In this document: positions 37,868 through 60,158 of the stretch, piece by piece
How positions within the stretch are numbered: the stretch's first letter is position 1
Layout of the letters: each line of letters starts with the position of its first letter
Source of the DNA: a virus
Length of the DNA: 64,000 nucleotides
IMG/VR virus record: IMGVR_UViG_3300025543_000013
Span: 1-64,000 of that record
Reading direction: 5' to 3' (one strand)
Made by a program: the position numbers and the translations under genes
Notes under the pieces: model-generated
Told to the model about the DNA's origin: nothing
The model's input: the letters and a program-made list of their open reading frames with translations, nothing else
The model's database searches: none

Positions 37868-38611
37868 ATGATTAAATTATCAGAATTATTACACGAAGGT
37901 ATCAATGACCCAGGTATTTTAAAAGCCGTTTTCTTAGCCGGAGGGCCTGGTTCAGGTAAAACCTATGTAGCCAAAGGTCTATTTGGTATTCCTGAACGAC
38001 TAAACATATCCCAAACTGGTTTGAAAATGGTCAATTCTGATAAAGAACTCAAACATCTTTTAAACAAATACGGATTCGGTACTGATTTAGACTCATTACC
38101 AGATGAAGTATTTTCAAATTTAACCAATCCTAAAGACCCAGAATATAGTGGATTGAGAACTTATGCAAAAGAACTCACCAAAGAACGACAAAGACTTTAT
38201 GCACAAGGTCGTTTAGGTATGATTATCGACGGAACCGGAGATGATTATCAAAAGATTGCACGAGAAAAGAAAGAATTAGAAGATATCGGATACGATACTT
38301 ATATGATTTTTGTCAACACTACATTAGAAGTAGCACTTGATAGAAATGAAAAAAGAGATAGAGTTTTACCTAAACATATTGTTGCGGATTCTCACAAAGA
38401 AGTAGTTCGTAATATTGGTGGATTTCAAGGATTGTTTGGTTCTGGTAATTTTATGGTTGTTGATAACAATCAATATCGAACAGAAGAAGAAGCAACCAAA
38501 CGATTCAATATGTTGGTTAAAAAAGGATTAGGTAAATTTATATCAGCACCCGTTAAAAATAAACGAGGACAAGCTTGGATACGACATAACAAACTATTAA
38601 AGGGGAAATAA
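37868..38611 (+). CDS. P-loop kinase (zeta toxin/AAA_33-like) with MIKLSELLHE leader
   Basis: FLAGGPGSGKT, VNSD, IIDGTG, ALDRNEKRDR lid. Confidence 0.8.
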   Translation: MIKLSELLHEGINDPGILKAVFLAGGPGSGKTYVAKGLFGIPERLNISQTGLKMVNSDKELKHLLNKYGFGTDLDSLPDEVFSNLTNPKDPEYSGLRTYAKELTKERQRLYAQGRLGMIIDGTGDDYQKIAREKKELEDIGYDTYMIFVNTTLEVALDRNEKRDRVLPKHIVADSHKEVVRNIGGFQGLFGSGNFMVVDNNQYRTEEEATKRFNMLVKKGLGKFISAPVKNKRGQAWIRHNKLLKGK

Positions 38612-38612
38612 A

Positions 38613-39095
38613 ATGTTAATATCATTTGACGAAATTATAGAAGTAACTTTACACCACGAAGGTGGATATGTTCACGACCCAAATGACTTGGGTGGAGAAA
38701 CCAACTTCGGTATTGCAAAAAGATTTTATCCAGATGTAGATATTAAAAATCTTACAGAAGACGAAGCAAAAGAAATTTATCGTAGAGATTATTGGGATAA
38801 AAACAGAGTGGAAGAACTACCAGAACACCTTAGACATATATTTTTCGATATGTGTGTAAATCAAGGTAGAGGAACCGCAGTAAAAATTTTACAACGAGCT
38901 TGTGTTGCTAAAGGAGCAGACATCGCAATTGACGGAGGTATGGGGCCAGGAACTATGAACGCAATCGAAACCTACAAACCTTCCGCAGATAGAGTTCGTT
39001 GTTATAGATTAAAACATTATTATGATTTAGTAAATGCAAAACCAGAACAAGAAAGATTTTTGTTCGGTTGGTTTAAACGAGCAATATCAGTATAG
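38613..39095 (+). CDS. GH108 lysozyme with peptidoglycan-binding domain (endolysin-like)
   Basis: HEGGYVHDPNDLGGETNFGI, IYRRDYW, FDMCVNQG, DG.MGPGT, FLFGW..R. Confidence 0.9.
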   Translation: MLISFDEIIEVTLHHEGGYVHDPNDLGGETNFGIAKRFYPDVDIKNLTEDEAKEIYRRDYWDKNRVEELPEHLRHIFFDMCVNQGRGTAVKILQRACVAKGADIAIDGGMGPGTMNAIETYKPSADRVRCYRLKHYYDLVNAKPEQERFLFGWFKRAISV

Positions 39096-39105
39096 GAGAA
39101 AATAA

Positions 39106-39378
39106 ATGGCAACACCAGTTCAAGGTTCATTCATAGATAGAACTAAAAACATAGAGAGACCAAATTCATTTAAAGTTGTTAATAGTATTAATGACGCAAT
39201 TTATGAACCAACAGGTTCTAATTTAAATTCAGCTTTTACCGTGAGTGGTGAAGGATATGAACTTAGAGGTTTAGATGGTGGTTCAATAACAGGTGGATTA
39301 GCAAGTGGTAGTGTATACAATGTATCATTATCATATGTTAGTGCATCATCATTTGCAACTGTAAACTTATTTAGATAA
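39106..39378 (+). CDS. Hypothetical protein
   Basis: AGGAG RBS; TAATG-coupled to the next gene. Confidence 0.65.
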   Translation: MATPVQGSFIDRTKNIERPNSFKVVNSINDAIYEPTGSNLNSAFTVSGEGYELRGLDGGSITGGLASGSVYNVSLSYVSASSFATVNLFR

Positions 39379-39755
39379 TGTCAGAACAAATATCACAGAT
39401 TATACGAGAAGTCATCACAGAACTGATTGACGATAGTCGTTGTGTTCGTTGTGGTTCAATCACTAATGAAGACTTGAGAAAGTGGTTCGGTAAAGGTGGA
39501 GCCGGAGGAACAACCAAAGGTGGTTGGGACAGATATGGTTCAGACGGACAGAAACTTGGTAAATGTGGTGGTGGAAAAGAAGGTGGTGCATATGCCGCAT
39601 GTTTAAGTGCCGAGAAAGCTCGTAAACTTGGCCCAGACGGAAGAGCAGCATTTGTTCGTCGTAAAAGACGAGACCAAAAGAAAGCAGGCGATACCAAAAA
39701 AGGAAGACAAAGAACCAAAGGTAAAGCACCAGTAATGAGTAAAACAGGAGCATAA
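39378..39755 (+). CDS. Small basic protein, putative head cargo
   Basis: QIIREVITE leader, CVRC, then TNE|DLRKWFG...C...CLS...KRR. Confidence 0.65.
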   Translation: MSEQISQIIREVITELIDDSRCVRCGSITNEDLRKWFGKGGAGGTTKGGWDRYGSDGQKLGKCGGGKEGGAYAACLSAEKARKLGPDGRAAFVRRKRRDQKKAGDTKKGRQRTKGKAPVMSKTGA

Positions 39756-39756
39756 G

Positions 39757-40245
39757 GTGATTAAATTACACGACATACTTAATGAAGCAGAAAAAAAAGG
39801 TTGTCCTTTACCAACACAAGATATTGATTTAAATTTAAAAAATCGTAATAAAGCATTTAAAAAATATAACTATGGGCCAGCAGACCCAAGACACGATTTA
39901 AATACAGATGTGGATAAATTAGATTATGCTAATTTAAAAGAAAGTGATTTTAAATCAAAAGAAGAATTACAAAACTCACCAAACATTGAGTATTGGAAAA
40001 AATTACAGGATATCTACAATACAGAAGATATATTCGCAATCTTAAAACAAAGATGTGGTAATTGTGCAGCATTTAACATTACGGACAAAATGAGAGATTG
40101 TATTAAAAAAGGTATCGGAGATGAAGCACCAGCAGAACCAATTATTAAAGTTGGTGAAATTGGATATTGTAGATTTTTAAAATTTAAATGTGCGGCAGCC
40201 AGAACTTGTCAAGCTTGGGTAAGCGGTGGGCCGATTAAAGACTAA
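39757..40245 (+). CDS. Cys-rich metal-binding protein with MIKLHDILNE leader
   Basis: CPLPT...RCGNCAAF...GYC...FKC...TCQAW. Confidence 0.65.
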   Translation: MIKLHDILNEAEKKGCPLPTQDIDLNLKNRNKAFKKYNYGPADPRHDLNTDVDKLDYANLKESDFKSKEELQNSPNIEYWKKLQDIYNTEDIFAILKQRCGNCAAFNITDKMRDCIKKGIGDEAPAEPIIKVGEIGYCRFLKFKCAAARTCQAWVSGGPIKD

Positions 40246-40562: not shown

Positions 40563-40565
40563 ATT

Positions 40566-42224: not shown

Positions 42225-42231
42225 GAGAGTT

Positions 42232-45200
42232 ATGAAATCAAAACTAACAGAATGGTTAGTTAAACCTTATATCAATGAAGGCGTTGAACTCGACATTGAA
42301 GTCGGTGATGACGTCTTGATGGGTAGGTTTAAAAACAAACGAGTCAAAGTCAAATCTATTGATTGGAATGACAAAGGTGATTTATTAATCAACGGAAGAC
42401 CCGCATTAAAATTTAGAAAAGTAGACAATGATAGAAAATTACTACCGACTAAAAAGTCAGGTGAGGATTCCATAGAACCAGATTCCGATAGAAAAGGTAT
42501 TGATGACGAATTCCCATATTACAAAACAGAAAACACAATGCACGAGTGTATTGCATTTTCTAAAAAGTTTGGAGACGATATTGTATTGGGAAAAAATCGT
42601 GATAGAAATTACACACCAGAATTAAAAATCGTAAGAGAAATAAGTGGAAACGGAATAGAAGTTTGTTATGTTCAAGACCAAGATACAGATTGGTCAGAAG
42701 GTATGAACTCAAATGGTATTGGATTGGTTAATTCAGCATTATTTGTTAAACGAGATGAAAAAGATTATGATAAATCTAAAAAGAAAAAGGCTCCTTCCAA
42801 AGACGGAATTCGTATAAGACACGCATTATCAAAAGATACACTACGAGATGTTGTGGAATCATTGGTTAAATTCGACACAGGAGTTAAAGGACACACAATC
42901 GTAAGTGATGGTAAAAAAGTAGTGGTGATTGAAAACACCAGTAGAACAAAAGCATCAGTCAAAATACACGACATATCTAATTCAGTCGTTAGAACAAATC
43001 ACGGACTTGAACATCCAGAACAAGGATATACAAGAGGGCCAGATAGAATTTCATCTCAATTGAGATTAAAAAATGCACAAAACATTATTGATAATGAAAG
43101 TGATTACAAAAAATTATTTCCTAAATTTTATAACCATACACAAAATAAAGGCCCAAAATATGATGTCGTAAGAGCACAAAATAAATTATGGACATCAAGT
43201 CAAATTTTAATGAATTTAAATAAACGAGAAATGATGTTGTATTTAATTCCAGGAGCAGTCAAGTTTATTGGTGTGGAAAACAAATTACCAAAAGGATATG
43301 ATAAAAAAATTAATTTAGTGGTTCGTGAATACGAACATAGTCCAAGTGATAAATACGGAACTTATGTTAAAACAACTGAAAAACCAAAACCAAGTGCCAT
43401 TAAAGATAAAGACATCAAAGTAGAAAGTTTCTTTGGATTAGAAGCAAAAAGAATTCCAAGAAAAAAAGGACAACATCAAGGTTCATCAAGTCATTCAGAT
43501 TTATACACAGATGAAAATCCAAAAGGAACAATACACGGATTAAAGTTTGCAACCGTAGATGACGCAAAAAAATCCGTTAGTAAAATAAAAGGTAGTGGTA
43601 AATCTCACGCTCACAAAATACAAGCGGCAGTTGCTATGGAACAACGAGCAAGAGAAATGGGTAAAACTGCACAAGCAGCAGTTTATCGTAGTTATATCAA
43701 CCAGATGAAAAAGAAGACCAAAGAAAAGAATGAGGGATTTTTTGGATTAGGAGCAGGAGACATTCCTTCACCAAGTCGTAAAATGGTAAAGAAAATGAAA
43801 AAGAAAGGAAATACATCAGTTCCTTATGGTAGTGGATATAAAAAAGTAAACGAACAAAAATCAAAAATTAAAAAAGTAATCGCAATATATCCAGGTCGTT
43901 TTCAACCATTCGGCCCACATCATAAAAAAGTATTTGACGCATTATCAAGTAAATTTGATGACGCTTACATCACAACATCAAACATCAAACAACCACCAAG
44001 ACACCCAATGAACTTTAATGAAAAAGTTCGTCATATGGTAAAAATGGGTGTTCCAAAAAATAAAATCGTTCAAGAAAAAAGTCCTTATGTGGCAAATAAT
44101 TTATTGAGAAAGTTTGATAAAGATACCACCGCAGTTGTTTATGTGTTTGGTGCAAAAGACGCCGGTAGATTAGCAGGTGGAACCAAGAAATCAGGTGGTA
44201 AAACTTATTATCAAGATTTAAAATCAAATATCAATGATTTAAAAGGATATGAAGAACACGGATACATTTATACCGCACCGCATGTAAATGTTAGTGGTAT
44301 ATCAAGTGGAACAGAAATCCGTAATTTATTAGGTAGTCCAAAGTTTGATGAAAAGAAAAGACAACAAATCTTTAAAAAAACATTTGGTTATTTTGACCAA
44401 GGTTTGTATAATATGTTGACCAATAAATTTAAAAAATTATTTGAATTTTATCAACAACCACAAGTAAAAAAATTATTGAAAGAAGTCAGTGCATTAGGAA
44501 CTCATTTTAACGGAAGTGATTTAGATGATGAGGGTATGTATGATTTTTTTGGGTCTATTGATGATTATGTTAGAGTATCACCAATGCATGCAGAAATTTT
44601 AGGTTGGGAGTTAATTGGATTTCCAATTCGTGACACAGAAGATATGATGTTTACTATTATGTCAGATGATTATGAAAAAGATAGAGTTGATACTACGACT
44701 TTTGGTAGAACGATTAATCAAAACACAAGAAATACTAAATCAGTAGATAATCCATTTCCAAAATATAAAGAACATATGAGAAATGTTGTGGGTAATTTAG
44801 GTTGGGAAATAATTAAATTTTACGGAGAAGAATCATTTACCAAGATGAAAGATTCACCAACACTAAATAAAAAAGATGTATATAAAGGTGTTGACCATAT
44901 TAAAGATAAATTAGCAGAAGAATTTGTTGAAGATGTAAAAAAAGTCTTTTTAATTGAAGGTGGAGCATACGGACATATGAATCACCCGTTTGACGATAAT
45001 AATTTGACGTTTTCAGATTTGAAGAATATAATTATATATGGGTTAGAAGGAACTTTAAATCGTGAAGATAATGTTTCTGAAAAACTTGACGGACAAAACC
45101 TAATGGTAAGTTGGGTTGACGGAAATTTAAGAGCAGCCCGAAACAAAGGACACCTAAAAAATGGTGGTAAAACAGCACCAACAACCGCAGGTATCGCAAG

Positions 45201-46182: not shown

Positions 46183-46194
46183 GGAGAATAGGTT

Positions 46195-47048: not shown

Positions 47049-47050
47049 TA

Positions 47051-47060: not shown

Positions 47061-47063
47061 TAT

Positions 47064-47444
47064 ATGAGATATTTAATTTACATATTATTTTTTGGATTAG
47101 TTTTTTCACAAGACGCAACCAAAACCTACACTTTTACCGAAGATGAAGTTTTGGGATTCACTAATCGTATCAAAGAATTAGAACTAAAAGATAGTTTGAA
47201 TGTTTCTTTGGTAATGGATTTAGAATCACAAATCAAATTATATGAGGAAAACTCAGTAATTGATTCAATGTTGATTGAGAATAAAACTAATCAAATTAAT
47301 CTACTGAAAGACACCACCAAACTTCTTGAACAAAAAGTAAAACTCGTTCAACCTAAATGGTATGAAAACAAATGGTTATACTTTACATATGGAGTTTTGA
47401 TGACTGCTACATCAGTTAAGTTAGCAGGTCAAATAGTAGATTAA
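47064..47444 (+). CDS. Exported coiled-coil protein with C-terminal membrane anchor (spanin candidate)
   Basis: Signal peptide MRYLIYILFFGLVFS|QD; C-terminal WYENKWLYFTYGVLMTATSV. Confidence 0.55.
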   Translation: MRYLIYILFFGLVFSQDATKTYTFTEDEVLGFTNRIKELELKDSLNVSLVMDLESQIKLYEENSVIDSMLIENKTNQINLLKDTTKLLEQKVKLVQPKWYENKWLYFTYGVLMTATSVKLAGQIVD

Positions 47445-50955: not shown

Positions 50956-51828
50956 ATGTCTTATGTAAAACATAATAAGATAAAGAATACAGGTATTCTT
51001 TATGAACTTTTATCTCGTCAAATTACTGTTGATGTGATAAATGACACAAAAAATCCTAAGTCAGTTAAATTATTTAAAGAATTTTTTAATAAAAATACTG
51101 AATTAGGTAAAGAATACGAATTATATTCAATCTTATTGAATAAAAAATACAAAAACTTGACTCACGCATCTTCTTTATTAGAAGCAGTAGTCAAAAGTCG
51201 TCGTAAATTGTCAAATCGTCGTTTGGCAAATGAAAAATTCAATCTAATTAAAACAATTAAAGAAAATTACGACATCAAAGAATTCTTCAATACAAGAATT
51301 CCTAACTTTAAAGTATTGGCATCGGTTTATCGTGTTTTTCAAACAGAAACCGGCAAAGAAGACTTTGGCCCATTAGCAAAAACAGATTCATCAATCACCA
51401 TAACTGAACATATTACTCAAACTAAACAAACAAGAGTGAAAAAACAAGTTATGAGTGAATATTCTTCACAAGAAAAAGATTTAAGATTGTTAAGTTATCA
51501 GTTATTAGTGGATAAGTTTAATAAAAAGTATAAGTCTTTAAATGAAAGTCAAAAAAACTTGTTGAAACAATATATCAACAATGTATCTAATACAAATTCA
51601 TTAAAAGAATTTATAGATTCAGAAGTAATCAAAGTCAAGAGAGCTCTAAAGACACTACTTCCAAAGATAGATGACAAGATTACAAAAATTAAACTTTCAG
51701 AAGCTATTAACTACACAGACGAAGCCACAAAAGGTAAAGTCGTGAAAGATAAACACGTGGTTGCATTGATGAGATACTATGAACTTATTAAGGAAATAAA
51801 AAATGTCCAATCACGACAAAATAGCTAA
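50956..51828 (+). CDS. Helical head-module protein of unknown function
   Basis: KHNKIKNTGILYELL N-terminus; directly after portal; ATG at 50956 after GGAG. Confidence 0.7.
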   Translation: MSYVKHNKIKNTGILYELLSRQITVDVINDTKNPKSVKLFKEFFNKNTELGKEYELYSILLNKKYKNLTHASSLLEAVVKSRRKLSNRRLANEKFNLIKTIKENYDIKEFFNTRIPNFKVLASVYRVFQTETGKEDFGPLAKTDSSITITEHITQTKQTRVKKQVMSEYSSQEKDLRLLSYQLLVDKFNKKYKSLNESQKNLLKQYINNVSNTNSLKEFIDSEVIKVKRALKTLLPKIDDKITKIKLSEAINYTDEATKGKVVKDKHVVALMRYYELIKEIKNVQSRQNS

Positions 51829-53197
51829 ACTCAAAGAAATCATTAGACACTTAGTTGTTCAAGAACTAAGAAAAGATGATATCGAAGAAGCATCAACAAC
51901 TGCTTCTGCCGGTGCAGCAAATCCAATGGGAACCGGTATTCATTACGATACACCAAAAGCATTCTCAAGTGGTTCAGCAGTTGGACACAAAAGTCCAGAA
52001 GTCGGTGGATATAAAAAAATCAAAGAAGATAAAGACATTGGTCACCAAGACGACGAACCAGATATGTTGAAATCTACTGCATTGGAAATCCAAGAGTATG
52101 GTAAAAAACTATACGACGCATTAGATAAATACGACAAGATGGAAGACGAAGTTGATTTTCCTAATTGGTGGCAGTCAAAACTAATCGTTGCAAAAGATTA
52201 TCTACAAAAAGCATATCATTATTTAAATTCAGAAGAAAAGAAAGACGGAGTTCAAGAATCAATCACCGGTTCAGACAGAAAAGAATTACTACAAATCGGT
52301 AAAGAAATCAAAGATAACTTGATAAAACATCATTCAGGTCTTAGTGGAAATGAAAGAATGTTGACACAAGCAATAGGTTCAACATTTATGTCTATGGGAT
52401 TTTCACCAGATAACAAAAATTATCAAAACTACAAAAAATACTTTCCAAAAAACTTTAATAGTTCATCAGTTCAAAAATTAGCTGGTATACTACAAAAGGA
52501 AAAAGATACCGTTAGAGCAACATTTTTTAAACAAGTTGTTAAAGAATCAATAAATGAAAAAACATCACCAAACGAAATGTATGATGATATGGTAAAAACT
52601 TTAAACACATCAAATCAAAAAAAGGCATTACAAAGATTAATAGATGAGTTTGAAATCGGTAGAGTTTATTATATGTTTTCAACAAATAGACGAGGATTTT
52701 TCCAAGCAGTTTTAACCGCAGAAGCATTGATGAAAGCAAAAAATCTAAAAGAAGTCACTCAACAAGAAATTGATGCGGTAAACAAACTTGTTAAAAGTTT
52801 TGATGTATTACGAAAAGAATATCAAAAAATCACCAACACAGGTGATAAAACACTTAAAGACAAAATATTCAATAATTATTATGAATATATCCAAGTGGCT
52901 CAAAAAGAAATGGAAAGACTTGCAGGAATTTTAAAAACCAAACAAATGATAGGTGAGGGTCGTTATCACGAATGGAGAAACGACGAATCCCTAACACCAA
53001 AACAAAAGATTGGTCAATCCGTAAAAGAAATTAGAGATTCATTAAACGAATTAGACAAAACAATCAAAATGAATTTAAAATTAAAAACAGAATTAAATAT
53101 GAGTTCTCAAGATTATTGGAAGAACACACACAAAGCACTAACCAAAATTTCTGAAAGGTTAGTTAAAATGGCAAACAAAGTAGGAAATTTAAAATAA
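51803..53197 (+). CDS. Multi-module putative prohead core/internal protein
   Basis: KLKEIIR leader; segments bounded by IEE, IKE, VQE, ESINE, LKE, IGE. Confidence 0.65.
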   Translation: MSNHDKIAKLKEIIRHLVVQELRKDDIEEASTTASAGAANPMGTGIHYDTPKAFSSGSAVGHKSPEVGGYKKIKEDKDIGHQDDEPDMLKSTALEIQEYGKKLYDALDKYDKMEDEVDFPNWWQSKLIVAKDYLQKAYHYLNSEEKKDGVQESITGSDRKELLQIGKEIKDNLIKHHSGLSGNERMLTQAIGSTFMSMGFSPDNKNYQNYKKYFPKNFNSSSVQKLAGILQKEKDTVRATFFKQVVKESINEKTSPNEMYDDMVKTLNTSNQKKALQRLIDEFEIGRVYYMFSTNRRGFFQAVLTAEALMKAKNLKEVTQQEIDAVNKLVKSFDVLRKEYQKITNTGDKTLKDKIFNNYYEYIQVAQKEMERLAGILKTKQMIGEGRYHEWRNDESLTPKQKIGQSVKEIRDSLNELDKTIKMNLKLKTELNMSSQDYWKNTHKALTKISERLVKMANKVGNLK

Positions 53198-53820
53198 TGA
53201 AACAAGTTATCGTAGATTACACACCATTTAATGTTTCAGCAACTCAAATCAATGAGTCAATGAAAGAAAACAACGGAAAGTTGATTGTAAAAGGTGTATT
53301 ACAAAGAGCAGAAGCAAAAAATCAAAATGGTAGAGTATATCCAAGAGATATTTTAGTTCGTGAATCTAAAAAATACAACGAAAATTTTGTAAGTCAAAAC
53401 AGAGCACTCGGTGAATTAGACCACCCAGATAGTTCCGTAGTTAATTTACAAAATGTTTCTCACAATGTCAAGGAAATGCATTTCGAAGGTGACAATTTAG
53501 TCGGAACCGTAGAAATCTTGACAACACCAAGTGGTAATATCTTAAAAGAGCTATTTAGAAATGGTATCAAATTAGGTATTAGTTCACGAGGATTGGGTAG
53601 TGTCGAAATGGTACAAGAAGCCAACGGAGACACCGTATCAAAAGTCGGTGATGACTTTGAATTAATCGCTTTTGATTTTGTTTCCAATCCTTCAACTCAC
53701 GGAGCATTCTTATATCCACAAAAAATGAATGAGTCCGTAGACAACACCTTAACCGGTAGAACTTGTGGAGATTATTGTAAGGCAGAAAATATAATTAATT
53801 CAATTATTAGAGGCGAATAA
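53197..53820 (+). CDS. Prohead core protease (T4 gp21-like)
   Basis: KNQNGRVYP, ALGELDHP, VSH, LGISSRGLGS, DFVSNPS. Confidence 0.95.
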   Translation: MKQVIVDYTPFNVSATQINESMKENNGKLIVKGVLQRAEAKNQNGRVYPRDILVRESKKYNENFVSQNRALGELDHPDSSVVNLQNVSHNVKEMHFEGDNLVGTVEILTTPSGNILKELFRNGIKLGISSRGLGSVEMVQEANGDTVSKVGDDFELIAFDFVSNPSTHGAFLYPQKMNESVDNTLTGRTCGDYCKAENIINSIIRGE

Positions 53821-54215
53821 TGGACTTACGAGAATTATCAAAAATCACAACAAGATACACCAATCGTTTAGATGAAGCAATGAAAATCAAAGGTGCTAAT
53901 GGTAAAATGGTTGAAGTTCCAAGTGAATACGGAAGAATAATGAGTGGAATCGATAGAGTGATGTCAAAATTTAGTCCACGAGGAGTTATGTTTGGATATC
54001 AAAGATATCACAAACTAAAACCAAATGATGAATATAGTGGTTCAATTATTTTAAAAAATCCGTTATCTAAAAAAGATACTGATGATGTTATGAAACATCT
54101 TAAAAGTGCAGGTAGTTCATTAGGAGTTAAATTTGAAAAAATTACATTTAATCCAGATAGAAATGAACCATTTGTTGAATTTAGAATAGATGACGATAGT
54201 TTAATGGTGAGATAG
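53820..54215 (+). CDS. Hypothetical protein, putative head cargo
   Basis: Leader ends RLDE|AMKI; translationally coupled to the protease gene. Confidence 0.6.
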   Translation: MDLRELSKITTRYTNRLDEAMKIKGANGKMVEVPSEYGRIMSGIDRVMSKFSPRGVMFGYQRYHKLKPNDEYSGSIILKNPLSKKDTDDVMKHLKSAGSSLGVKFEKITFNPDRNEPFVEFRIDDDSLMVR

Positions 54216-54218
54216 AAA

Positions 54219-56570
54219 ATGCCAGCCGTTAGTAAAAAACAACAAAAATTTATGGGGATTGTAAGGTCAATCCAAAAAGGTGAACAACCAGCGTCTAAGT
54301 TTTCCAAAGACGCACAAGATGTTGCCAAAGATATGAAAAAGAAAGATGTGAAGAAATTCGCATCAACCAAACATAAGGGTTTACCAATGAAAAAAGAACA
54401 AATGATAAATCGTTTAAAAGAAATGATTAAACAAGAATTATCAGAATACACTTATGGTGTAGGTGATATCGTTAAAGATGTCAATCCTTCTTGTTTACAT
54501 TACGGAGCAATCGGTAAAGTAAAAGAGGTAAATCCAGAATATGTTACTTTTGTCGTGACGAACAACGGAGATAATTTTTCCAAAGGACAAACATTAGAAA
54601 AATCACACGACCAAATGAAAAAAGTGAATGAAGGTTCAATGGATTGGGAAAAGAAACATTTCCCTTGGGCAAATAAAGAAGAACAAATGATGATTGCTAA
54701 ACTTGTGTTTTCAAATAAAGATGGTATTGATGGTGAAGTAAAACGTCAAAAGAAGAACCCGAGTTCTTATAAAGACCACATAAAAAGAATGGTTAAAAAA
54801 GGATTACACGAATCAGTAAATGAATCAACTGCCAGAACTGATAAATCAATCGGAACTAAAAACTACAAAGGTGTAGGTTGGTTCTGGCCAAATGATGGTT
54901 GGAAACATTATTTAAGAGATGTTGAAAACGCAGGAAGAAAAGAAGTTCACGACCTTTGGTTAAAAGCAGGATTTGAAGTTAAAAAAGACAATCGTGGAAT
55001 TCCACACTTTGACATTAAACCAAATGAAAGAGGAAAGGCAATGGACATTGTTAACAAATTAGACAGGTCAAAAAAATATAAACACGCTAACGAATCAGTA
55101 AACGAAGCAACATTTACACCAATTGATAAAATAAAAGATATTAAAAACTTAGTAAAAAAAGATTTAGTAACATATAGAGGTGGTAAAGGAGGTGGTTATG
55201 AAATAGCAATTCGTAATAGAAAAGTTCCTGGTTGGCCAATACCACGTGATTTATATTTCACAAAAGATGGTAGAGTGAATACATCACCAGAAGCACAAAA
55301 GACTATTTCCGATACAAGAAGAAAACAATATGCAATAAAACCAATTGCAGTATATAATATACATTCTAATGATTTAAGGAAATTAAGGCAATTTGGAGAC
55401 GTTGTAGGATTAGCACCAAACAGGAGAGAATCAGTAGAATCAGTAAACGAAGCAAATCCAAAAGATACTATTGCAACTATCGATATGGTAAATGCATTAT
55501 TAAAAATTAAAAGTCCAATGTCAAGACAAACTTTAGACGCACTAAAAATGATGGTTAGACATTATGGACTTGACAACATTAAAAAAGAAGTTCAAAGAGA
55601 TGCCAGAAAATTTTACAAAAGTTTACAAAAAATGGAAAAAGGTTTAAACCAAGACATTGAACTTGAAAGTATCATCAAAGAAGATTACTTTGTTCGTGGT
55701 GGTGAAGAATTTTCAAAAAACTTTTTAACCGGACTTGATTTAGTTATTTCACAGGCAAATAATTTAAAAGGTCAATTATCAAAACATCCAGTTAAAAGAG
55801 ATGTGAATAAATTAAGAGCAATTCAAACAATTTATAAAAAGTTTTTACAACCATCAATAGATAAACAAACTGACCGTTTCAAATCAGTTGATTTAACTAA
55901 AGTAAAAAAATATTTACAAGACGGAAAATTTAGAAATGCACTTGAATATGAAATATTAAGTGCACTTTCTACAAGTAGTTACAATAGTAATTCTTATCGT
56001 TTCTTAGATGATAAACAACAAGAATTAGTAAAAAAACTTAGCAGTTCTTTAAAAGATTTAACCAATAAATTAGACAAAGCACAATTGGAATCAGTAAATG
56101 AAGCAAGTGTATCACAAGTTCGTTCAACTATATCAAGAGTTAAAAAACAATTGATGCAAAAATGGGCTAAAAAAGGTGGATACGAAAACTTTGGTCAAAA
56201 AGAACTTCGTAATTTAAGAGATAAGTTTAAAGAAAATCCTTATGGTAGTCCAGAAGAAAGAAAGATTTCAGATATGTTAAGTGCATTTGATAATTGGGCT
56301 ATGAATTATAGTGGTGATATGAGAGAAACAGTAATTAAAGAAGCCGGTGGTGTAGAAAAGATTTTAGATATGGCAAGAAATAATTCATATGGAAAACTTG
56401 GTGGACAAACCGTTGATGGTCTGACTGCAAATTTATTTAAAGCAGTTTACGATAGAGCACCACAAGACGCAAAAGATAAAGTTAATAAAATGAACGAAAG
56501 AGAATTAATCAGATTTATGGGTAATTTATGGAATAAGTTCGGTAAAAACGTTACTTTGAGGAGTAGTTAA
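54219..56570 (+). CDS. Polyprotein of unrelated modules joined by ESVNE(A) linkers
   Basis: MPAVSKKQQKFMG...FASTKHKGLP N-terminal module; four ESVNE linkers plus LSE, VNE and two IKE. Confidence 0.7.
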   Translation: MPAVSKKQQKFMGIVRSIQKGEQPASKFSKDAQDVAKDMKKKDVKKFASTKHKGLPMKKEQMINRLKEMIKQELSEYTYGVGDIVKDVNPSCLHYGAIGKVKEVNPEYVTFVVTNNGDNFSKGQTLEKSHDQMKKVNEGSMDWEKKHFPWANKEEQMMIAKLVFSNKDGIDGEVKRQKKNPSSYKDHIKRMVKKGLHESVNESTARTDKSIGTKNYKGVGWFWPNDGWKHYLRDVENAGRKEVHDLWLKAGFEVKKDNRGIPHFDIKPNERGKAMDIVNKLDRSKKYKHANESVNEATFTPIDKIKDIKNLVKKDLVTYRGGKGGGYEIAIRNRKVPGWPIPRDLYFTKDGRVNTSPEAQKTISDTRRKQYAIKPIAVYNIHSNDLRKLRQFGDVVGLAPNRRESVESVNEANPKDTIATIDMVNALLKIKSPMSRQTLDALKMMVRHYGLDNIKKEVQRDARKFYKSLQKMEKGLNQDIELESIIKEDYFVRGGEEFSKNFLTGLDLVISQANNLKGQLSKHPVKRDVNKLRAIQTIYKKFLQPSIDKQTDRFKSVDLTKVKKYLQDGKFRNALEYEILSALSTSSYNSNSYRFLDDKQQELVKKLSSSLKDLTNKLDKAQLESVNEASVSQVRSTISRVKKQLMQKWAKKGGYENFGQKELRNLRDKFKENPYGSPEERKISDMLSAFDNWAMNYSGDMRETVIKEAGGVEKILDMARNNSYGKLGGQTVDGLTANLFKAVYDRAPQDAKDKVNKMNERELIRFMGNLWNKFGKNVTLRSS
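54810..56106 (+). repeat. Dispersed linker repeat GAATCAGTAAAYGAA(GCAA)
   Basis: Copies at 54810, 55092, 55437 and 56088; related GAATCAATAAATGAA at 52544. Confidence 0.85.
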
Positions 56571-56571
56571 A

Positions 56572-57009
56572 ATGGATAAAAAATTAGCAATGAAAATAAG
56601 TGATTCTTGGAAAGACTTTCGTTTAAATTCTTTAACAGAAGCAATGAAAATTTTCCCAGCTGGAGCACAACACGGATTTGATTTAACAGATTTCAAACCA
56701 AGAGGATTTGAAAAGTTTTTAACTGCATTAGGTATTCCTAAAGTGGCAAAAGGTTCATCAACCGGAGTAAGTTGGTCTGCAGGAAATAATTTTTATTGGA
56801 GAAACAAAGATATTATTATCATTACTGCAAACAATCCAATTACAGGTCAATATTATGCACCAGACAGAAGAAGTCCAGAAAAGAATTACGCATCATATGT
56901 GGGAATTGAAACAAAAAATCCAGATGATATGGAAAGAGTGGTTAAATTATTTAAACAACACACATCTTATCGTAAAGGTGAATCAAAAGGTAGAAGGGAT
57001 TTTGTATAA
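56572..57009 (+). CDS. Hypothetical protein, putative head cargo
   Basis: Leader ends SLTE|AMKI; GAGGAG RBS. Confidence 0.6.
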   Translation: MDKKLAMKISDSWKDFRLNSLTEAMKIFPAGAQHGFDLTDFKPRGFEKFLTALGIPKVAKGSSTGVSWSAGNNFYWRNKDIIIITANNPITGQYYAPDRRSPEKNYASYVGIETKNPDDMERVVKLFKQHTSYRKGESKGRRDFV

Positions 57010-58061
57010 TGATTAAAATTAAAGATATCATTAAAGAACATAAAATCATAATGACTGAGGCATTTGCATCAGGTAAACTTCGTGCATTGACAAACAATTG
57101 GAGGTCAAACGATTCAGACTTTTGGGCATACGGAGCAAAACTTGGTATCGAGTGGGACAAAATCACAGACCAAGAAATCAAAACCAATACCAAACCACTT
57201 AAAAAAGGAATTGAACTTGTTTATGTTGATAAAGATGTTTCAGTTCCACAAAAAGGTAACACAGGAAATTGGGGTAGATATGATATCGGTATTGACAAGT
57301 TTACATTGATTAGTGTGTTGAAAGACGGAAAACCACTTTGGTATACAAAAAGTTGGAAACCATTAACCAATGTAATGACTGCAACCGGTAAATCAACTAA
57401 AACAAGTCGTTATGGTAGAACAACAAGTAGAGTTCCAGATATAGACGCAGGTTCAAGAGATTGGTCAAAAAATAGACAATTTGGATTAAATATGACCGGA
57501 TATCAATCATTAGCAGGTATGATGTCAATACCAGGAGTTAAATTCCATCACATTGATTTATCAGAAGACCAACCTTATATGGGGGCTGGTATCAAACGAC
57601 AAATGAGACAAGCAGCTCAATTCGGTGCAGCAAAATTCACCACTAATGATGAATTTGCAAGAATTAACAGACAATACTTTGACGAATTGTTAAAAGCAAG
57701 ATTAAACGACCCTAAAAAATTAGCACAAAAAGTAAAACAAGCAGCTGATTTTTGTCAACAAATTATTGACGCAGCACTTGGTGGTGTTACAGCAACAGGT
57801 AAAGTAAAAAGTATTATTGACAAATTTCAGTCCAATAGAACAACTGCAACACAAGAGGCAGACGCTTATGCATTGGCATCAGAGGTAGGTGATGAATTAA
57901 GTAGATTGTATAGATATTATGGATATTATTTAGAAGCAATCCAAAAAGAAAAAGAAGATAAAATTAAATACGGAACAGCAGACTTCACAAAAGATGAAGC
58001 TGAAGGCCACGCAAAAGATGTTCAACAATATTACAATTATATTATGGGAGGAAAATTCTAA
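57009..58061 (+). CDS. Hypothetical protein with MIKIKDIIKE leader
   Basis: Long coupled ORF carrying the shared leader. Confidence 0.65.
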   Translation: MIKIKDIIKEHKIIMTEAFASGKLRALTNNWRSNDSDFWAYGAKLGIEWDKITDQEIKTNTKPLKKGIELVYVDKDVSVPQKGNTGNWGRYDIGIDKFTLISVLKDGKPLWYTKSWKPLTNVMTATGKSTKTSRYGRTTSRVPDIDAGSRDWSKNRQFGLNMTGYQSLAGMMSIPGVKFHHIDLSEDQPYMGAGIKRQMRQAAQFGAAKFTTNDEFARINRQYFDELLKARLNDPKKLAQKVKQAADFCQQIIDAALGGVTATGKVKSIIDKFQSNRTTATQEADAYALASEVGDELSRLYRYYGYYLEAIQKEKEDKIKYGTADFTKDEAEGHAKDVQQYYNYIMGGKF

Positions 58062-58324
58062 TGATTAAATTAAAAAACATATTAACAGAAAATGATTTAA
58101 CTTTTGTTTCAAAAATAATCGGTAAACCAGTTCGTGATATCGAAAGATTTCTTGACAAGAATAAAAAATTTCGTTCGGGTCAATTATACGATTATCTTGA
58201 CTTAGCTTACGATAATCAAGAAAGAAAAGAACGTGGAGAAGAAATTGTTAAGGCGATGAAAGGTGATAGTAAAGCACTTAAAGAATTAAATAGATTATTA
58301 AAATATTTTGGTAAAGATTACTGA
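58061..58324 (+). CDS. Hypothetical protein with MIKLKNILTE leader
   Basis: GGAGG RBS; shared leader. Confidence 0.65.
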   Translation: MIKLKNILTENDLTFVSKIIGKPVRDIERFLDKNKKFRSGQLYDYLDLAYDNQERKERGEEIVKAMKGDSKALKELNRLLKYFGKDY

Positions 58325-58326
58325 TA

Positions 58327-58581
58327 ATGATTAAATTAAAAAACATATTATCCGAACAAGACAACACCATTGATAAAAAAGAATGGGAAAAAGTCAGCAC
58401 AACCATTTATGACGGAATGGATACTTTGTTTTTTAAAGGTGTTAAGTATTTAAGAGATTACGATAGGTCAAACTTACCACCAAAAGAAAAAAGAATGTTA
58501 ACTGACTTTTTCAATGATTTCTCAGCACTTCAAAGAAGATTTGGAAAAATAGAAAGAGAAATTGACAGGTATGCAAAATGA
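58327..58581 (+). CDS. Hypothetical protein with MIKLKNILSE leader
   Basis: First 24 coding nt identical to those of 58061. Confidence 0.65.
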   Translation: MIKLKNILSEQDNTIDKKEWEKVSTTIYDGMDTLFFKGVKYLRDYDRSNLPPKEKRMLTDFFNDFSALQRRFGKIEREIDRYAK

Positions 58582-59093
58582 TTAAATTAAAATCTATATT
58601 ACAAGAAGAAATGAATCCAAGAGACAAACGAGAGTTTGAAGCAGCAGCTCGTGGTATCGAAACTAATTTAGAATACATCAAAGAAGAAGTCACAAGACTT
58701 GTCAAACTACTCAATAAAGAAGGTATGAGAAAGTCAGCAAACGAACTTCAAATATCATACAAAAGACGAGTATTAGAATTTGGATTAGATGTAAAAAACA
58801 TTACAAGACAACACATTGGAGAAGCAACAACAGGATTTACAGACGCAGGTAGAGGATATCAAAACAAAGAAACTCAAACCTTTTCAGTAAACGCAGTTAA
58901 AGACGCAAGTAAACAAGTTGGTAAATTACAACAAAGTGTTGTTGGACAATTTATCAAAGATATCAATCAGAAAAAATATGATGCTATGGACTTGGTTCGT
59001 GCAATCAAAACCACACCATTGGGTGACGCATCATTTAGTAAAAAAGATTTTTTTATGTCTTTGTTTGATTTGATTAAAAAACGAACAAGATGA
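58578..59093 (+). CDS. Hypothetical protein with MIKLKSILQE leader
   Basis: ATGA coupling; internal IGE|A junction. Confidence 0.65.
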   Translation: MIKLKSILQEEMNPRDKREFEAAARGIETNLEYIKEEVTRLVKLLNKEGMRKSANELQISYKRRVLEFGLDVKNITRQHIGEATTGFTDAGRGYQNKETQTFSVNAVKDASKQVGKLQQSVVGQFIKDINQKKYDAMDLVRAIKTTPLGDASFSKKDFFMSLFDLIKKRTR

Positions 59094-59101
59094 TATTTAT
59101 A
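59092..59101 (+). promoter_or_regulatory. Candidate late promoter GATATTTATA
   Basis: Recurring motif followed by AAGGAG RBS. Confidence 0.55.
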
Positions 59102-59118
59102 TACAAGGAGAAAACAAA

Positions 59119-59892
59119 ATGGCTAAATTAAAAAAATTAATCAAAGAAAACTTCTCATTAGTCGGTGGGGTAGTTTCAACACCAGCAATAGGTGGTGGGT
59201 ATACTTCTTTATCAAGAATCGTTAAAGAAAAATATGGTGAAACACCAACACAAAAGATTACTTCTAAACAAGTAGCAGAAGCATTGAGAAATTATAATCA
59301 AATTGGTAAATCACTTTATCAACAACAATCATTAAAAGAAACTGCAAAAAGATTATCATCAATCGCAGAAATGGCAGCTTCTCACACATTACAAGAAACA
59401 GAAGATTGGTTTGATAAAGTTACGGTTTCTCGTAATATGAAAGAATTAACCAATCACTCAAAAGCATTTTCAAAAATAGCAGAAGAAGCATCATCCGTTC
59501 AACAAAGATTAGCCAGTTTGTATGAAGATATGGGTATGATTCTAAATCGTTATTATGATATTCCAGAAAGTGAAGAAAAGGATAAAGAAGAATACGGAAG
59601 TAATACAATTGAAGAAGGTGATTATGAAGAATTCTTCCAATCAGCAATGAAAAAATTTGGTGTATCTTCACCTGATGATTTTAAAACTGATGAAGAAAAG
59701 AAAAAGTTCTTCAATTATGTTGATAAAAATTATCAAGCAAAATCAGAAGGCAAAGTATATGAAGGTGGGCCAGGAAGTGGTAGACCAGGTGGTAAGATGC
59801 CACAACCAAGTGATTTCGGTGGAAATATGGATAAATACTTTGATGCGTTAAACAAAAGAATGGCTGACGACGAAAAAAGAAAGAAAAAATAA
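59119..59892 (+). CDS. Putative prohead core/internal protein with MAKLKKLIKE leader
   Basis: Helical core, then IEE|GDYEEFF...KKFG..SP...KKKFFNYVD and YE|GGPGSG modules. Confidence 0.65.
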   Translation: MAKLKKLIKENFSLVGGVVSTPAIGGGYTSLSRIVKEKYGETPTQKITSKQVAEALRNYNQIGKSLYQQQSLKETAKRLSSIAEMAASHTLQETEDWFDKVTVSRNMKELTNHSKAFSKIAEEASSVQQRLASLYEDMGMILNRYYDIPESEEKDKEEYGSNTIEEGDYEEFFQSAMKKFGVSSPDDFKTDEEKKKFFNYVDKNYQAKSEGKVYEGGPGSGRPGGKMPQPSDFGGNMDKYFDALNKRMADDEKRKKK

Positions 59893-60158
59893 TGAAACTT
59901 AAAAAACTATTAAACGAAAATCTTTGGAACGAAAGAAAGTTTGGTGAGTCATTACCAACACTTGAAGACACTACCAAAGCATATAAATTAAAACAAGAAC
60001 AAGAAATCAACGAAGAACCAATCGTTGAAAACAATTCATCACTTAAAGCAAAAATGATTCGACATATACAAGATATGGTAAAATATAGTGATAGACTTGG
60101 TAGTGATGAAATTGATGAATTAAAAGAATTGTTAAAATTAGTGCAACAAATCAGATAA
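59892..60158 (+). CDS. Small protein with MKLKKLLNE leader
   Basis: TAATG coupling; shared leader. Confidence 0.6.
   Translation: MKLKKLLNENLWNERKFGESLPTLEDTTKAYKLKQEQEINEEPIVENNSSLKAKMIRHIQDMVKYSDRLGSDEIDELKELLKLVQQIR

What the first reader, a model, noticed from the sequence alone, without database searches (positions are those of the whole stretch)
37868..60158. Shared N-terminal leader MIKLxxILxE on many unrelated proteins: candidate capsid-targeting tag defining a cargo set
Seen: proteins with unrelated bodies start MIKLSELLHE (37868), MIKLHDILNE (39757), MIKIKDIIKE (57009), MIKLKNILTE (58061), MIKLKNILSE (58327), MIKLKSILQE (58578), MAKLKKLIKE (59119) and MKLKKLLNE (59892). Looser versions occur at 39378, 42232, 51803 and inside 40566 (MKSLSEMIKE) and 54219 (RLKEMIKQELSE). 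All lie in the head module, and ~6.7 kb of such genes separate the protease from the scaffold gene, which are adjacent in T4. No glycan-island or tail gene carries the leader. Known: T4 internal proteins have a ~10 aa capsid targeting sequence ending in Glu that gp21 removes at (L/I)-x-E; the capsid protein here has LIQE|A at residue 63, like the gp23 site. Inference: a portable packaging tag that loads a diverse protein payload into the head for delivery at infection.
Basis: partly seen in the sequence, partly recalled or inferred. Interest (0 to 1): 0.85.

Follow-up and report, generated by a model that had tools for sequence, protein, structure and literature searches.

The report
T4-style capsid-loading tag on phage proteins
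An uncultured T4-like phage, and a large environmental clade of its relatives, put nearly the same ten-residue N-terminal peptide on many unrelated small proteins encoded beside the head protease; it is most likely the equivalent of phage T4's capsid-loading tag, which would mark the proteins that these phages pack into the head and probably inject with their DNA.

Summary
Eight ORFs at 37.9-60.2 kb start M-[I/A]-K-[L/I]-x-x-[L/I]-[L/I]-x-E, and their bodies show no detectable similarity to one another. The core motif occurs 10 times in 24,657 residues of the contig, 8 of them at residue 2-3.

The phage has a T4-type portal, an S77 prohead protease with the His/Ser pair aligned to gp21, and a gp23-type capsid protein. 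L-[I/V]-x-E|[A/S]-S is kept in 67 of 67 related capsid proteins and matches the last four leader residues.

The tag is clade-wide. In 80 related loci it is 73-fold enriched at N-termini and peaks 2-5 kb upstream of the capsid gene. A DNA-pattern scan of IMG/VR gave at least 120 more loci, every match at an ORF start. The commonest neighbour family there was the prohead protease. There are about 110 body clusters.

Conserved leader positions 4, 7, 8 and 10 are the positions shown by experiment to matter in the T4 IPIII targeting sequence.

Verdict: a new member of a known kind (T4 capsid targeting sequence plus gp21 cleavage). Packaging, cleavage and injection are inferred, not shown. This scan has noted the same kind of tag on other T4-like phage DNA.

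The parts
37868..38611 (+). Tagged gene 1: leader MIKLSELLHE plus a 237-aa basic P-loop kinase body (polynucleotide-kinase / zeta-toxin class)
   Evidence: Pfam Zeta_toxin 4.9e-9 and AAA_33. Foldseek best hits are polynucleotide kinase 4gp6 and zeta toxin 1gvn, on a model of mean pLDDT 64. All 120 closest homologues start with the leader.
39757..40245 (+). Tagged gene 2 (GTG start): leader MIKLHDILNE plus a 152-aa Cys-containing body with no family match
57009..58061 (+). Tagged gene 3: leader MIKIKDIIKE plus a 340-aa basic body. Orthologues in relatives carry either this leader or a different N-terminus (LSKITTRY type).
58061..58324 (+). Tagged gene 4: leader MIKLKNILTE plus a 77-aa basic body
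58327..58581 (+). Tagged gene 5: leader MIKLKNILSE plus a 74-aa basic body
58578..59093 (+). Tagged gene 6: leader MIKLKSILQE plus a 161-aa basic body
59119..59892 (+). Tagged gene 7: leader MAKLKKLIKE plus a 247-aa all-helical body. This is the one tagged family conserved across the clade, so it is probably a head-core component.
   Evidence: 58 orthologues found through the body. In an alignment of 42 of them M1, E10, G16 and G17 are invariant. The AF2 model is all-helical with a leader helix at residues 3-13, and has low pTM.
59892..60158 (+). Tagged gene 8: 9-residue leader MKLKKLLNE, followed by the recurring motif W-x-R-K-F-G-E-x-L-P-T-L
53197..53820 (+). Prohead serine protease (Peptidase_S77, gp21 type), the proposed enzyme that removes the leader
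   Evidence: Pfam 2e-27. phrog_207 2.7e-50. 32% identity to T4 gp21, with H85 and S140 aligned. It is the commonest neighbour family of leader genes in IMG/VR, in 50 of 120 loci.
60533..61684 (+). Scaffold-like acidic helical protein directly upstream of the capsid gene. Its N-terminus MDDLLRE|A resembles a short leader and is conserved in relatives. It is the proposed docking partner of the leader.
   Evidence: Composition and position. 69 orthologues begin MDDLL[KR][ED]AIADAK. No BLAST similarity to T4 gp22.
61701..63350 (+). Major capsid protein (Gp23 family) with a predicted maturation site L-I-Q-E63|A-S (Glu codon at 61887-61889)
   Evidence: Pfam 4.3e-78. E63 aligns with E65 of T4 gp23. 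L[IV]xE|[AS]S is present in 67/67 unique relatives.
49029..50891 (+). Portal protein (Portal_T4, gp20 type)
   Evidence: Pfam 1e-75
50956..53197 (+). Two conserved genes between portal and protease, in the position of T4 genes 67 and 68. The 51803 product has a leader-like N-terminus (KLKEIIRH here, KLKEIIRE in orthologues) and a conserved I-E-E|A-S near residue 29.
39378..39755 (+). Looser candidate: MSEQISQIIRE|V (I-I-R-E ending at residue 11)
   Evidence: Not supported by orthologues.
42232..46182 (+). 1316-aa multi-module protein beginning MKSKLTEWLVKPYINE|G. A possible packaged polyprotein; it does not carry the strict leader.
   Evidence: the orthologue in G001 begins MNKLTQWLIDPYVKE. 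Notes of other readers, not tested here.
53820..57009 (+). Three untagged genes between the protease and the tagged cluster. Each has a different N-terminal motif shared across unrelated bodies: LSKITTRY type (53820), DUF3008 (54219) and a WKDFRL type (56572).

Best explanation
The decapeptide M-I-K-L-K-D-[L/I]-[L/I]-K-E is this clade's counterpart of the phage T4 capsid targeting sequence. The proposed mechanism has four steps. (1) The tagged proteins are made late. (2) A short amphipathic N-terminal helix (hydrophobic residues at 4, 7 and 8) binds the scaffold core as the prohead assembles, so the protein is enclosed in the shell. (3) The S77 prohead protease then cuts after the invariant Glu at the site [L/I]-[L/I/V]-x-E. 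This is the same site it uses on the capsid protein (L-I-x-E63|A-S). The cut releases mostly small, basic mature proteins inside the head. (4) They leave with the DNA at infection. The block between protease and scaffold is a hypervariable cargo locus. One conserved tagged family (the 59119 family) is probably a structural core component rather than payload. Shown from sequence: the tag, its position, its link to the protease, its conservation on diverse bodies, and its match to the capsid-protein site and to the T4 register. Inferred: binding to the scaffold, cleavage, residence in the virion and ejection.
For: - Window statistics: 8 of the 10 motif matches in 24,657 aa are at residue 2-3, and the bodies are unrelated.
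- Clade statistics: in 81 loci (1,384 ORFs) the motif starts within the first 9 residues 119 times and elsewhere 47 times, a 73-fold enrichment per position. 134 of 135 tagged ORFs lie on the capsid-gene strand. 111 of 125 lie upstream of the capsid gene, peaking 2-5 kb upstream.
- Sharp boundary: information content is 1.1-3.7 bits per leader position, including positions outside the regex, and 0.2-0.6 bits straight after the Glu.
- Independent retrieval: the IMG/VR scan for the leader DNA gave at least 120 loci. All 122 matches lie at ORF starts and 119 ORFs are 50 aa or longer. 83 of 120 loci hold homologues of the window's head or virion genes. In an unbiased clustering the top neighbour family is the S77 protease, in 50 loci, followed by core, DUF3008, portal, terminase and capsid families.
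- Protein-level selection: one peptide is encoded by up to 26 different 30-mers. GAA/GAG at the Glu sit at background ratio.
- Body-defined families keep the leader: E10 is invariant in 42 orthologues of 59119, whose mean column identity is 31%. 120 of 120 kinase homologues carry it. The long form of the kinase has a 42-residue spacer ending L-V-E|G exactly where the short form has L-H-E|G.
- Protease and capsid site: His and Ser align with T4 gp21 H85 and S140. The capsid LIQE63|A aligns with gp23 LTE65|A and is conserved 67/67.
- T4 register: in IPIII, residues 4 and 7 matter for targeting and residues 8 and 10 for processing (PMC9026906). Those are the conserved hydrophobic and Glu positions here. 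T4 N-termini fetched for comparison: ipII/ipIII MKTYQEFIAE, gp24 MAKINELLRE.
- Nature of the cargo: tagged bodies have median pI 9.0 and 152 aa, against 5.4 and 251 aa for untagged proteins. Six of the eight window bodies have pI 8.4-9.7. T4 internal proteins are likewise small and basic.
- One site per protein: the strict site [LI][LIV]xE occurs only once, at the leader end, in seven of the eight tagged proteins.
- Genome-wide test: in the complete 216-kb relative, 3 of 259 ORFs are tagged, all within 18 kb upstream of the capsid gene. PolB, RNR and others are untagged.
Against: - There are no proteomic, N-terminal or structural data for this phage or any close relative, and I found no paper on this clade's leader.
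- The leader resembles the T4 sequence only in pattern, not by detectable homology.
- The scaffold assignment rests on position and composition. It has no BLAST similarity to gp22.
- Some orthologues of tagged proteins carry other N-termini. The two closest relatives of 57009 start with an LSKITTRY-type sequence. So the tag is not obligatory for a given body.
- Leader codons are more A-ending than the general 5' bias: A3 is 0.72, against 0.50 in codons 2-11 of untagged genes. Some mRNA-level selection is therefore superimposed.
- The 59119 and 59892 bodies are acidic.
- Ejection into the host rests only on the analogy with T4.
Confidence: 0.8

Rival explanations
1. The conserved 5' coding sequence is selected at the mRNA level. 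It would be an A/U-rich, unstructured start that boosts translation initiation of late genes, possibly in connection with the phage-encoded ribosomal protein S21 that lies in the same block. The peptide would be a by-product.
For: The leader DNA is extremely A/T-rich. A-ending codons are enriched beyond background: AAA is 99% at Lys 5 and A3 is 0.72. An S21 gene sits at 60176-60376 and is conserved in 55 relatives.
Against: The A-ending bias is a general feature of codons 2-11 of untagged genes as well. The capsid, portal, sheath and other presumably highly expressed late genes lack the leader. Leu, Ile, Met and Val interchange through first-base changes while hydrophobicity is kept. Glu is invariant, with GAA and GAG at background ratio. 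One peptide has up to 26 different encodings. Leader-type junctions are also kept inside proteins, away from any start codon. The last four residues match the capsid protein's internal site.
Confidence: 0.05
2. The peptide is an assembly or address tag that is not removed, or that directs proteins to another part of the virion or cell. Examples are a permanent anchor to the scaffold remnant, the portal or the inner shell, or an oligomerisation helix. In that case the tagged proteins would be structural rather than injected cargo.
For: The one tagged family conserved across the clade (59119) is all-helical and acidic, and looks like a core component. Nothing shows cleavage or ejection directly.
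Against: The tag always ends in the motif found at the conserved capsid-protein site. Conservation stops exactly at the Glu. The long and short forms of the kinase keep an L-x-E|G junction in front of the same mature start. Most bodies are hypervariable accessory proteins or enzymes (kinase, NT5C nucleotidase, RNase T-type exonuclease), which fit poorly as structural parts.
Confidence: 0.1
3. The tag is the recognition sequence of some other modifying enzyme (RiPP-like logic), or merely a recombination linker that lets cassettes shuffle, with no role in head targeting.
For: This contig does encode radical-SAM-like enzymes in the glycan island (note). T-even internal-protein loci are known to be polymorphic.
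Against: I clustered all 1,407 ORFs from the 120 loci found through the leader alone. The only enzyme among the frequent neighbours is the S77 prohead protease (50 loci). All the other top families that match a window protein are head, virion or head-module proteins. Amino-acid conservation with synonymous variation argues against a purely DNA-level linker.
Confidence: 0.04

Closest known systems
Phage T4 capsid targeting sequence (CTS) of internal proteins IPI, IPII, IPIII (and Alt), removed by the gp21 prohead protease (Mullaney and Black 1996; reviews PMC3012670, PMC9026906)
   Same: An extreme N-terminal peptide of about 10 residues, shared by otherwise unrelated proteins. It has hydrophobic residues at positions 4, 7 and 8 and Glu at 10, and ends in (L/I)-x-E. 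It occurs in a phage with gp20, gp21 and gp23 homologues. The mature proteins are small and basic. The cargo set varies between relatives.
   Different: There is no detectable sequence homology to MKTYQEFIAE. The consensus is Lys-rich and much more uniform. There are eight or more tagged genes per genome. They are clustered between the protease and scaffold genes, whereas the T4 ip genes lie in other parts of the genome (near gene e and gene 57B). About 110 body clusters are seen across the clade, including enzymes. Nothing has been shown by experiment.
[quoted passage not shown]
   Same: gp24's first ten residues fit the same pattern as the leader here (M-A-K-[IL]-x-x-L-[LI]-x-E; compare MAKLKKLIKE at 59119). 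The scaffold-like protein here starts MDDLLRE|A, much as gp22 starts with a short L-x-E segment.
   Different: Those are essential shell and core proteins, not accessory cargo. No gp24 paralogue was found on this contig.
Propeptides of ejection and inner-body proteins of giant phages phiKZ, 201phi2-1 and SPN3US, cut by a gp21-related protease (PMC5694885)
   Same: Head-internal proteins are processed after Glu by a related protease. Paralogues with identical N-termini are taken there as CTS-like.
   Different: The cleavage motif there is A/S-x-E. Most of those propeptides are more than 100 residues long. There is no single short portable tag shared by many unrelated bodies.
Polyvalent proteins of phages (Iyer et al. 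2017, PMC5512222)
   Same: Multi-domain enzyme proteins encoded next to virion genes and predicted to be packaged and injected. The 1316-aa and 783-aa ORFs here may be of this kind.
   Different: That class is defined by domain architecture, not by a short N-terminal tag. The tag-bearing proteins here are mostly single small modules.

Membership tests
T4-type capsid targeting sequence (CTS) system | Short (10-20 residue) peptide at the extreme N-terminus of the protein | tested here: met
   Nine or ten residues in all eight window proteins. Relatives have 9-14 residues.
T4-type capsid targeting sequence (CTS) system | Ends in the prohead-protease motif (L/I)-x-E | tested here: met
   All eight end [LI]-x-E. 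Glu is invariant in the body-defined family alignment. The same motif is at the capsid-protein site in 67/67 relatives.
T4-type capsid targeting sequence (CTS) system | The phage encodes a gp21-type (Peptidase S77) prohead protease with catalytic His and Ser | tested here: met
   Pfam PF03420 2e-27. His and Ser align with gp21 H85 and S140.
T4-type capsid targeting sequence (CTS) system | The same tag is carried by proteins with unrelated mature parts | tested here: met
   No pairwise similarity among the eight bodies. About 110 clusters among 256 tagged bodies.
T4-type capsid targeting sequence (CTS) system | Functional register: residues 4 and 7 for targeting, 8 and 10 for processing (IPIII mutagenesis, PMC9026906) | tested here: met
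   The conserved positions here are 4 (L), 7 and 8 (L/I) and 10 (E). This is agreement of pattern only. Function was not tested.
T4-type capsid targeting sequence (CTS) system | Sequence homology to the T4 CTS (MKTYQEFIAE) | tested here: not met
   Only the hydrophobic/Glu pattern is shared. The peptide is too short for a statistical test of homology.
T4-type capsid targeting sequence (CTS) system | The tag is sufficient to load a protein into the prohead, is cleaved there, and the protein is ejected at infection | not testable with these tools
   This needs virion proteomics or N-terminomics, or reporter fusions. No published data were found for this clade.
T4-type capsid targeting sequence (CTS) system | A gp22-like scaffolding core for the tag to bind | tested here: inconclusive
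   An acidic helical protein lies directly upstream of the capsid gene and is conserved in 69 relatives. It has no BLAST similarity to gp22.

The most novel reading that the evidence does not exclude
The decapeptide is a sequence-readable address label for a whole environmental phage clade. On this reading the roughly 110 or more body families behind it are a catalogue of proteins delivered ready-made into the host at injection. Many would be takeover or counter-defence enzymes acting on nucleic acids or nucleotides: a PNK/zeta-type kinase, an NT5C nucleotidase, an RNase T-type exonuclease, and a NUDIX enzyme noted elsewhere in this scan. The tag could also serve as a programmable protein-delivery handle. 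Further head-module address motifs (WKDFRLxE, LSKITTRY, DUF3008, the RKFGEPLPTL extension) would then point to several parallel loading routes.
Probability: 0.3. Interest if true: 0.8.

Novelty: new member of a known kind. Interest (0 to 1): 0.6.

Why it matters
Apart from T4 and a few giant phages, little is known about which proteins phages inject along with their DNA. These proteins act before any phage gene is expressed, so they are prime candidates for anti-defence and takeover functions. If this tag works as in T4, a ten-residue motif would pick out such proteins directly from metagenomes. The clade appears abundant: the tagged kinase alone has more than 7,600 homologues in the protein collection, with ENA, JGI and Tara among the sources. 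The tag would also give a defined reagent for tests (leader-reporter fusions), and would extend the T4 targeting rule to relatives whose capsid proteins are only about 30% identical to gp23.

Tried and rejected
- Function of the untagged-looking bodies: PHROGs, Pfam and NCBIfam gave nothing for 39757, 57009, 58061, 58327, 58578, 59119 or 59892. The protein atlas returned only virus-only hypothetical clusters. A PDB sequence search with the kinase gave no significant hit.
- The AF2 model of the 59119 family has pTM 0.34, so I ran no fold search on it.
- A tblastn of 57009 against cultured phages found nothing.
- BLAST of the scaffold-like and core proteins against T4 gp22, gp67, gp68 and the IPs gave only chance-level hits.
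- Single-linkage clustering of bodies chained 86 proteins into one group through short shared motifs. I replaced it with clustering that requires 60% coverage.
- The late-promoter-like word TTATATTTAT is not enriched overall: 47 matches against 38.6 expected. Its exact plus-strand copies do lie in intergenic gaps, but I do not use it as evidence.
- The mRNA-level rival was considered and rejected. So was the 'tag of another enzyme' rival.
- GH108 lysin at 38613 (MLISFDEIIE): I considered counting it as tagged. I left it uncertain because its orthologue in the 216-kb relative has a different N-terminus.

Full report
**1. What the window is.** The window is the first 64 kb of a 76.5-kb viral contig. 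All long ORFs lie on the plus strand, and GC content is about 30%. Pfam and PHROGs identify a T4-type head module:
- large terminase, 47444-49015
- Portal_T4, 49029-50891
- Peptidase_S77 prohead protease, 53197-53820
- ribosomal protein S21, 60176-60376
- Gp23-family capsid protein, 61701-63350

An acidic helical protein (60533-61684) sits where T4 has its scaffold gene. Neck, tail and sheath genes follow on the rest of the contig. The closest cultured relatives by capsid protein are Microcystis phage Mel-JY01 (56%), Flavobacterium phage vB_FspM_immuto (52%) and Rhodothermus phage RM378 (37%). An uncultured 484-kb phage record reaches 57%.

Eight ORFs begin with the motif at the stated coordinates:

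| Start | Leader |
|---|---|
| 37868 | MIKLSELLHE |
| 39757 (GTG, behind AGGAG) | MIKLHDILNE |
| 57009 | MIKIKDIIKE |
| 58061 | MIKLKNILTE |
| 58327 | MIKLKNILSE |
| 58578 | MIKLKSILQE |
| 59119 | MAKLKKLIKE |
| 59892 | MKLKKLLNE |

Over the 72 proteins of the contig (24,657 aa), K[LI]xx[LI][LI]xE matches ten times. Eight matches are at residue 2-3 and two are internal. From the internal rate about 0.01 N-terminal matches are expected. No gene of the glycan island or the tail carries it. With the N-terminus removed, the eight bodies share nothing better than E = 0.04 in BLASTP.

**3. The tag is clade-wide and sits at N-termini of head-module genes.**
- A capsid-protein search of IMG/VR gave 80 loci at 59-88% identity.
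- Together with this contig they hold 1,384 ORFs. The core motif starts within the first nine residues 119 times and anywhere else 47 times. That is a 73-fold enrichment per position.
- 134 of 135 tagged ORFs are on the capsid-gene strand.
- 111 of 125 tagged genes lie upstream of the capsid gene, with a peak 2-5 kb upstream. 76 lie between protease and capsid gene.
- Positions outside the search pattern are also informative: Ile2 1.8 bits, Lys5 2.8 bits, Asp6 1.6 bits. Information falls to 0.2-0.6 bits per position directly after the Glu. The conserved unit therefore ends exactly at the Glu.

**4. Independent retrieval by the tag alone.** I scanned IMG/VR for DNA encoding M-I-K-[LF]-K-D-[LIFM]-[LIFM]-K-E. 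By my estimate, under one match is expected by chance even if the whole collection were AT-rich.
- All 122 matches are at ORF starts, 119 of the ORFs are 50 aa or longer, and 99 lie within 15 codons of an upstream stop.
- 83 of the 120 short loci contain homologues of this window's head or virion genes.
- I then clustered all 1,407 ORFs of these loci without reference to the window. The most frequent neighbour family is the S77 protease (50 loci). Next come the 59119-like family (46), the 50956 family (44), DUF3008 proteins (41), portal (39), terminase (27) and capsid protein (27). No other enzyme family appears among the frequent neighbours.
I ran the clustering to test that kind of rival here, and it is not supported.

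One relative (capsid protein 76% identical) is a 216-kb record that CheckV rates complete. I fetched all of it. Of 259 ORFs, three carry the tag at the N-terminus, and all three lie within 18 kb upstream of the capsid gene. Eight internal chance matches are scattered across the genome. The genome encodes family-B DNA polymerase, ribonucleotide reductase and other enzymes, all untagged. In a second record (82 kb), eight strict matches all lie within 25 kb of the capsid gene. The condition that would have refuted the finding, the tag being equally common on replication or early genes, is not met.

**6. Selection acts on the peptide.**
- Body-defined families keep the tag. For the 59119 family, 58 orthologues were found through the body alone. 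In an alignment of 42 of them (mean column identity 31%), M1, E10, G16 and G17 are invariant. The length of the Lys-rich part varies, for example MAKLKDLIKE, MSKKIKLKDLLKE and MKKKSLFKE.
- All 120 closest homologues of the 37868 kinase (77-97% identity) start with the leader.
- A long form of the kinase has the leader, a 42-residue spacer and then L-V-E|G. That junction is exactly where the short form has L-H-E|G, in front of the same start G-x-[NKR]-D-P-G. A junction kept inside a protein cannot be explained by translation initiation.
- The peptide MIKLKDLLKE is encoded by 26 different 30-mers.
- GAA and GAG at the Glu sit at background ratio.
- A-ending codons are enriched in the leader. The same bias, somewhat weaker, is seen in codons 2-11 of untagged genes. 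It is therefore mostly a general 5' effect.

**7. Link to the protease.**
- The protease is 32% identical to T4 gp21, and the His and Ser of its LGELDHP and SSRGLGS motifs align with gp21 H85 and S140. That H85 and S140 are the catalytic residues is from my own knowledge.
- The capsid protein's L-I-Q-E63|A-S aligns with F-L-T-E65|A-E of T4 gp23. The papers I read say only that gp21 removes an N-terminal propeptide from gp23.
- L-[IV]-x-E|[AS]-S is present in all 67 unique related capsid N-termini.
- The last four residues of the leader, [LI]-[LI]-x-E, are thus the clade's own capsid-maturation motif.
- In seven of the eight tagged window proteins this strict motif occurs only once, at the leader end. 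The body would therefore be left whole.

**8. Comparison with T4.** From the T4 record I read the N-termini of ipII and ipIII (MKTYQEFIAE), ipI (MKTFKEF...), gp24 (MAKINELLRE), gp22 (MLKEQLIAE) and gp21 (MNEPQLLIE). The review PMC9026906 gives four points. The first ten residues of IPIII suffice for incorporation. Residues 4 and 7 matter for targeting and residues 8 and 10 for processing. Asp at 10 blocks processing but not targeting. The IPs are basic proteins of about 8-20 kDa, present at about 300 or more copies per head. Here the conserved positions are 4, 7, 8 and 10. The tagged bodies have median pI 9.0 and length 152 aa, against 5.4 and 251 aa for untagged proteins. Six of the eight window bodies have pI 8.4-9.7 and masses of 9-38 kDa. 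The same review already suggests that the CTS may be a general way for T4-like phages to load various proteins. The principle is therefore known. I found no paper that describes this clade's tag.

**9. What the cargo is.**
- 256 tagged bodies fall into about 110 clusters.
- One family (59119) is conserved across the clade. Its model is all-helical, with the leader as a separate helix followed by a low-confidence linker. The model has mean pLDDT 65 and pTM 0.34, so it is weak evidence. I read the family as a head-core component.
- The 37868 body is a P-loop kinase. It matches Pfam Zeta_toxin and AAA_33. The closest folds are bacterial polynucleotide kinase, zeta toxin and adenylate kinases, on a model of mean pLDDT 64 in which residues 1-16 have pLDDT below 50.
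- In relatives the tag heads an RNase T-type exonuclease, an NT5C nucleotidase and a kinase-NT5C fusion.
- Most bodies match no family.

**10. Mechanism and confidence.** Most likely (0.8) the tag is a capsid-targeting propeptide that the S77 protease removes after the Glu. Delivery into the host is a further inference from T4. I put the full chain (loaded, cut and ejected) at about 0.6. The rivals are:
- an mRNA-level element, 0.05
- an uncleaved structural address or oligomerisation helix, 0.1
- a tag for another enzyme, or a bare recombination linker, 0.04

**11. Limits.** Everything rests on sequence. The scaffold assignment is positional. The two closest relatives of 57009 replace the leader with another N-terminus. 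Two window bodies are acidic. The host is unknown. Hints point in different directions: strong AGGAG sites precede many genes here, while the 216-kb relative carries a SusC-like receptor fragment.

**12. Earlier notes of this scan.** The scan has described the same kind of T4-style leader set on other uncultured T4-like phages. On one other genome it noted the same M-x-KLK[DE]LL-x-E motif. I treated these notes as leads only.

Noticed in passing
window 53820-54215, 56572-57009, 54219-56570; loci L006, L008, L013, L015, L016, L019, L023, L025: Three further N-terminal motifs are shared by different bodies in the same head block. They are W-[KR]-D-[FY]-R-L-x-E (8 of 8 matches within the first 40 residues), [LI]-S-[KN]-I-[KT]-T-R-Y (5 of 5) and the DUF3008 start M-P-x-x-S-K-x-Q-Q-x-F-M-G (20 of 20, on bodies of 206-1315 aa). 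They may be alternative head-address modules.
   Followed up: partly
window 59892-60158 and about 20 relatives: In many tagged proteins a second conserved motif, W-x-R-K-F-G-[ED]-x-L-P-T-L, follows the leader after 0-8 residues. It sits in front of bodies of 79-467 aa. Of 27 matches, 21 lie in the first 40 residues.
   Followed up: partly
proteins P0026, P0037, P0116 and others (homologues of window 37868-38611): There is a 289-aa long form of the tagged kinase. It has the leader, a 42-residue spacer and a second L-V-E|G junction exactly where the short form ends its leader. The spacer contains a degenerate second copy of the leader.
   Followed up: yes
L013:4742-6481 (+): A 579-aa ORF starts with one leader and carries a second complete leader (MIKLKDVLRE) at residue 247, in front of a 57009-type body. 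It is either a fusion or polyprotein with an internal processing site, or two genes read in one frame.
   Followed up: partly
window 60176-60376: A ribosomal protein S21 gene lies inside the head block, between the tagged genes and the scaffold-like gene. It is conserved at this place in 55 related loci.
   Followed up: partly
window 37826, 50911, 60413 (exact); 47050, 59091, 63532, 1797, 16813 (one mismatch): The word T[TG]ATATTTAT lies on the plus strand in intergenic gaps ahead of structural operons, including two tagged genes. It could be a late promoter. Overall it is not enriched over shuffles, 47 matches against 38.6 expected.
   Followed up: partly
G001 (216-kb relative), L094:4538-7327: A 930-aa ORF has CarboxypepD_reg and TonB Plug domains, the N-terminal build of SusC-type receptors. 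This may hint at a Bacteroidota host or a captured host gene.
   Followed up: no
window 38613-39095: A GH108 lysozyme with a PG_binding_3 domain lies directly after the tagged kinase. It starts MLISFDEIIE, which fits (L/I)-x-E at residue 10. Its orthologue in the 216-kb relative has a different N-terminus.
   Followed up: partly
L001 (Flavobacterium phage vB_FspM_immuto), 2955-12030 and 16454: This cultured relative has looser leaders on the genes upstream of its terminase and portal: MRLLELLRE|A, MKKSQLRQIIKE|A, MKKLIRIVE|A, and a pair starting M-x-N-F-x-L-[RK]-x-F-L-x-E-N-K-L-T. None is seen on its tail genes. This makes it a usable experimental system.
   Followed up: partly
window 51803-53197: The conserved protein between portal and protease has lost the leader's Glu here (KLKEIIRH, against KLKEIIRE in orthologues). 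It keeps a conserved [LI]-x-E|[AV]-[ST] near residue 24-29, which may be its real processing site.
   Followed up: partly
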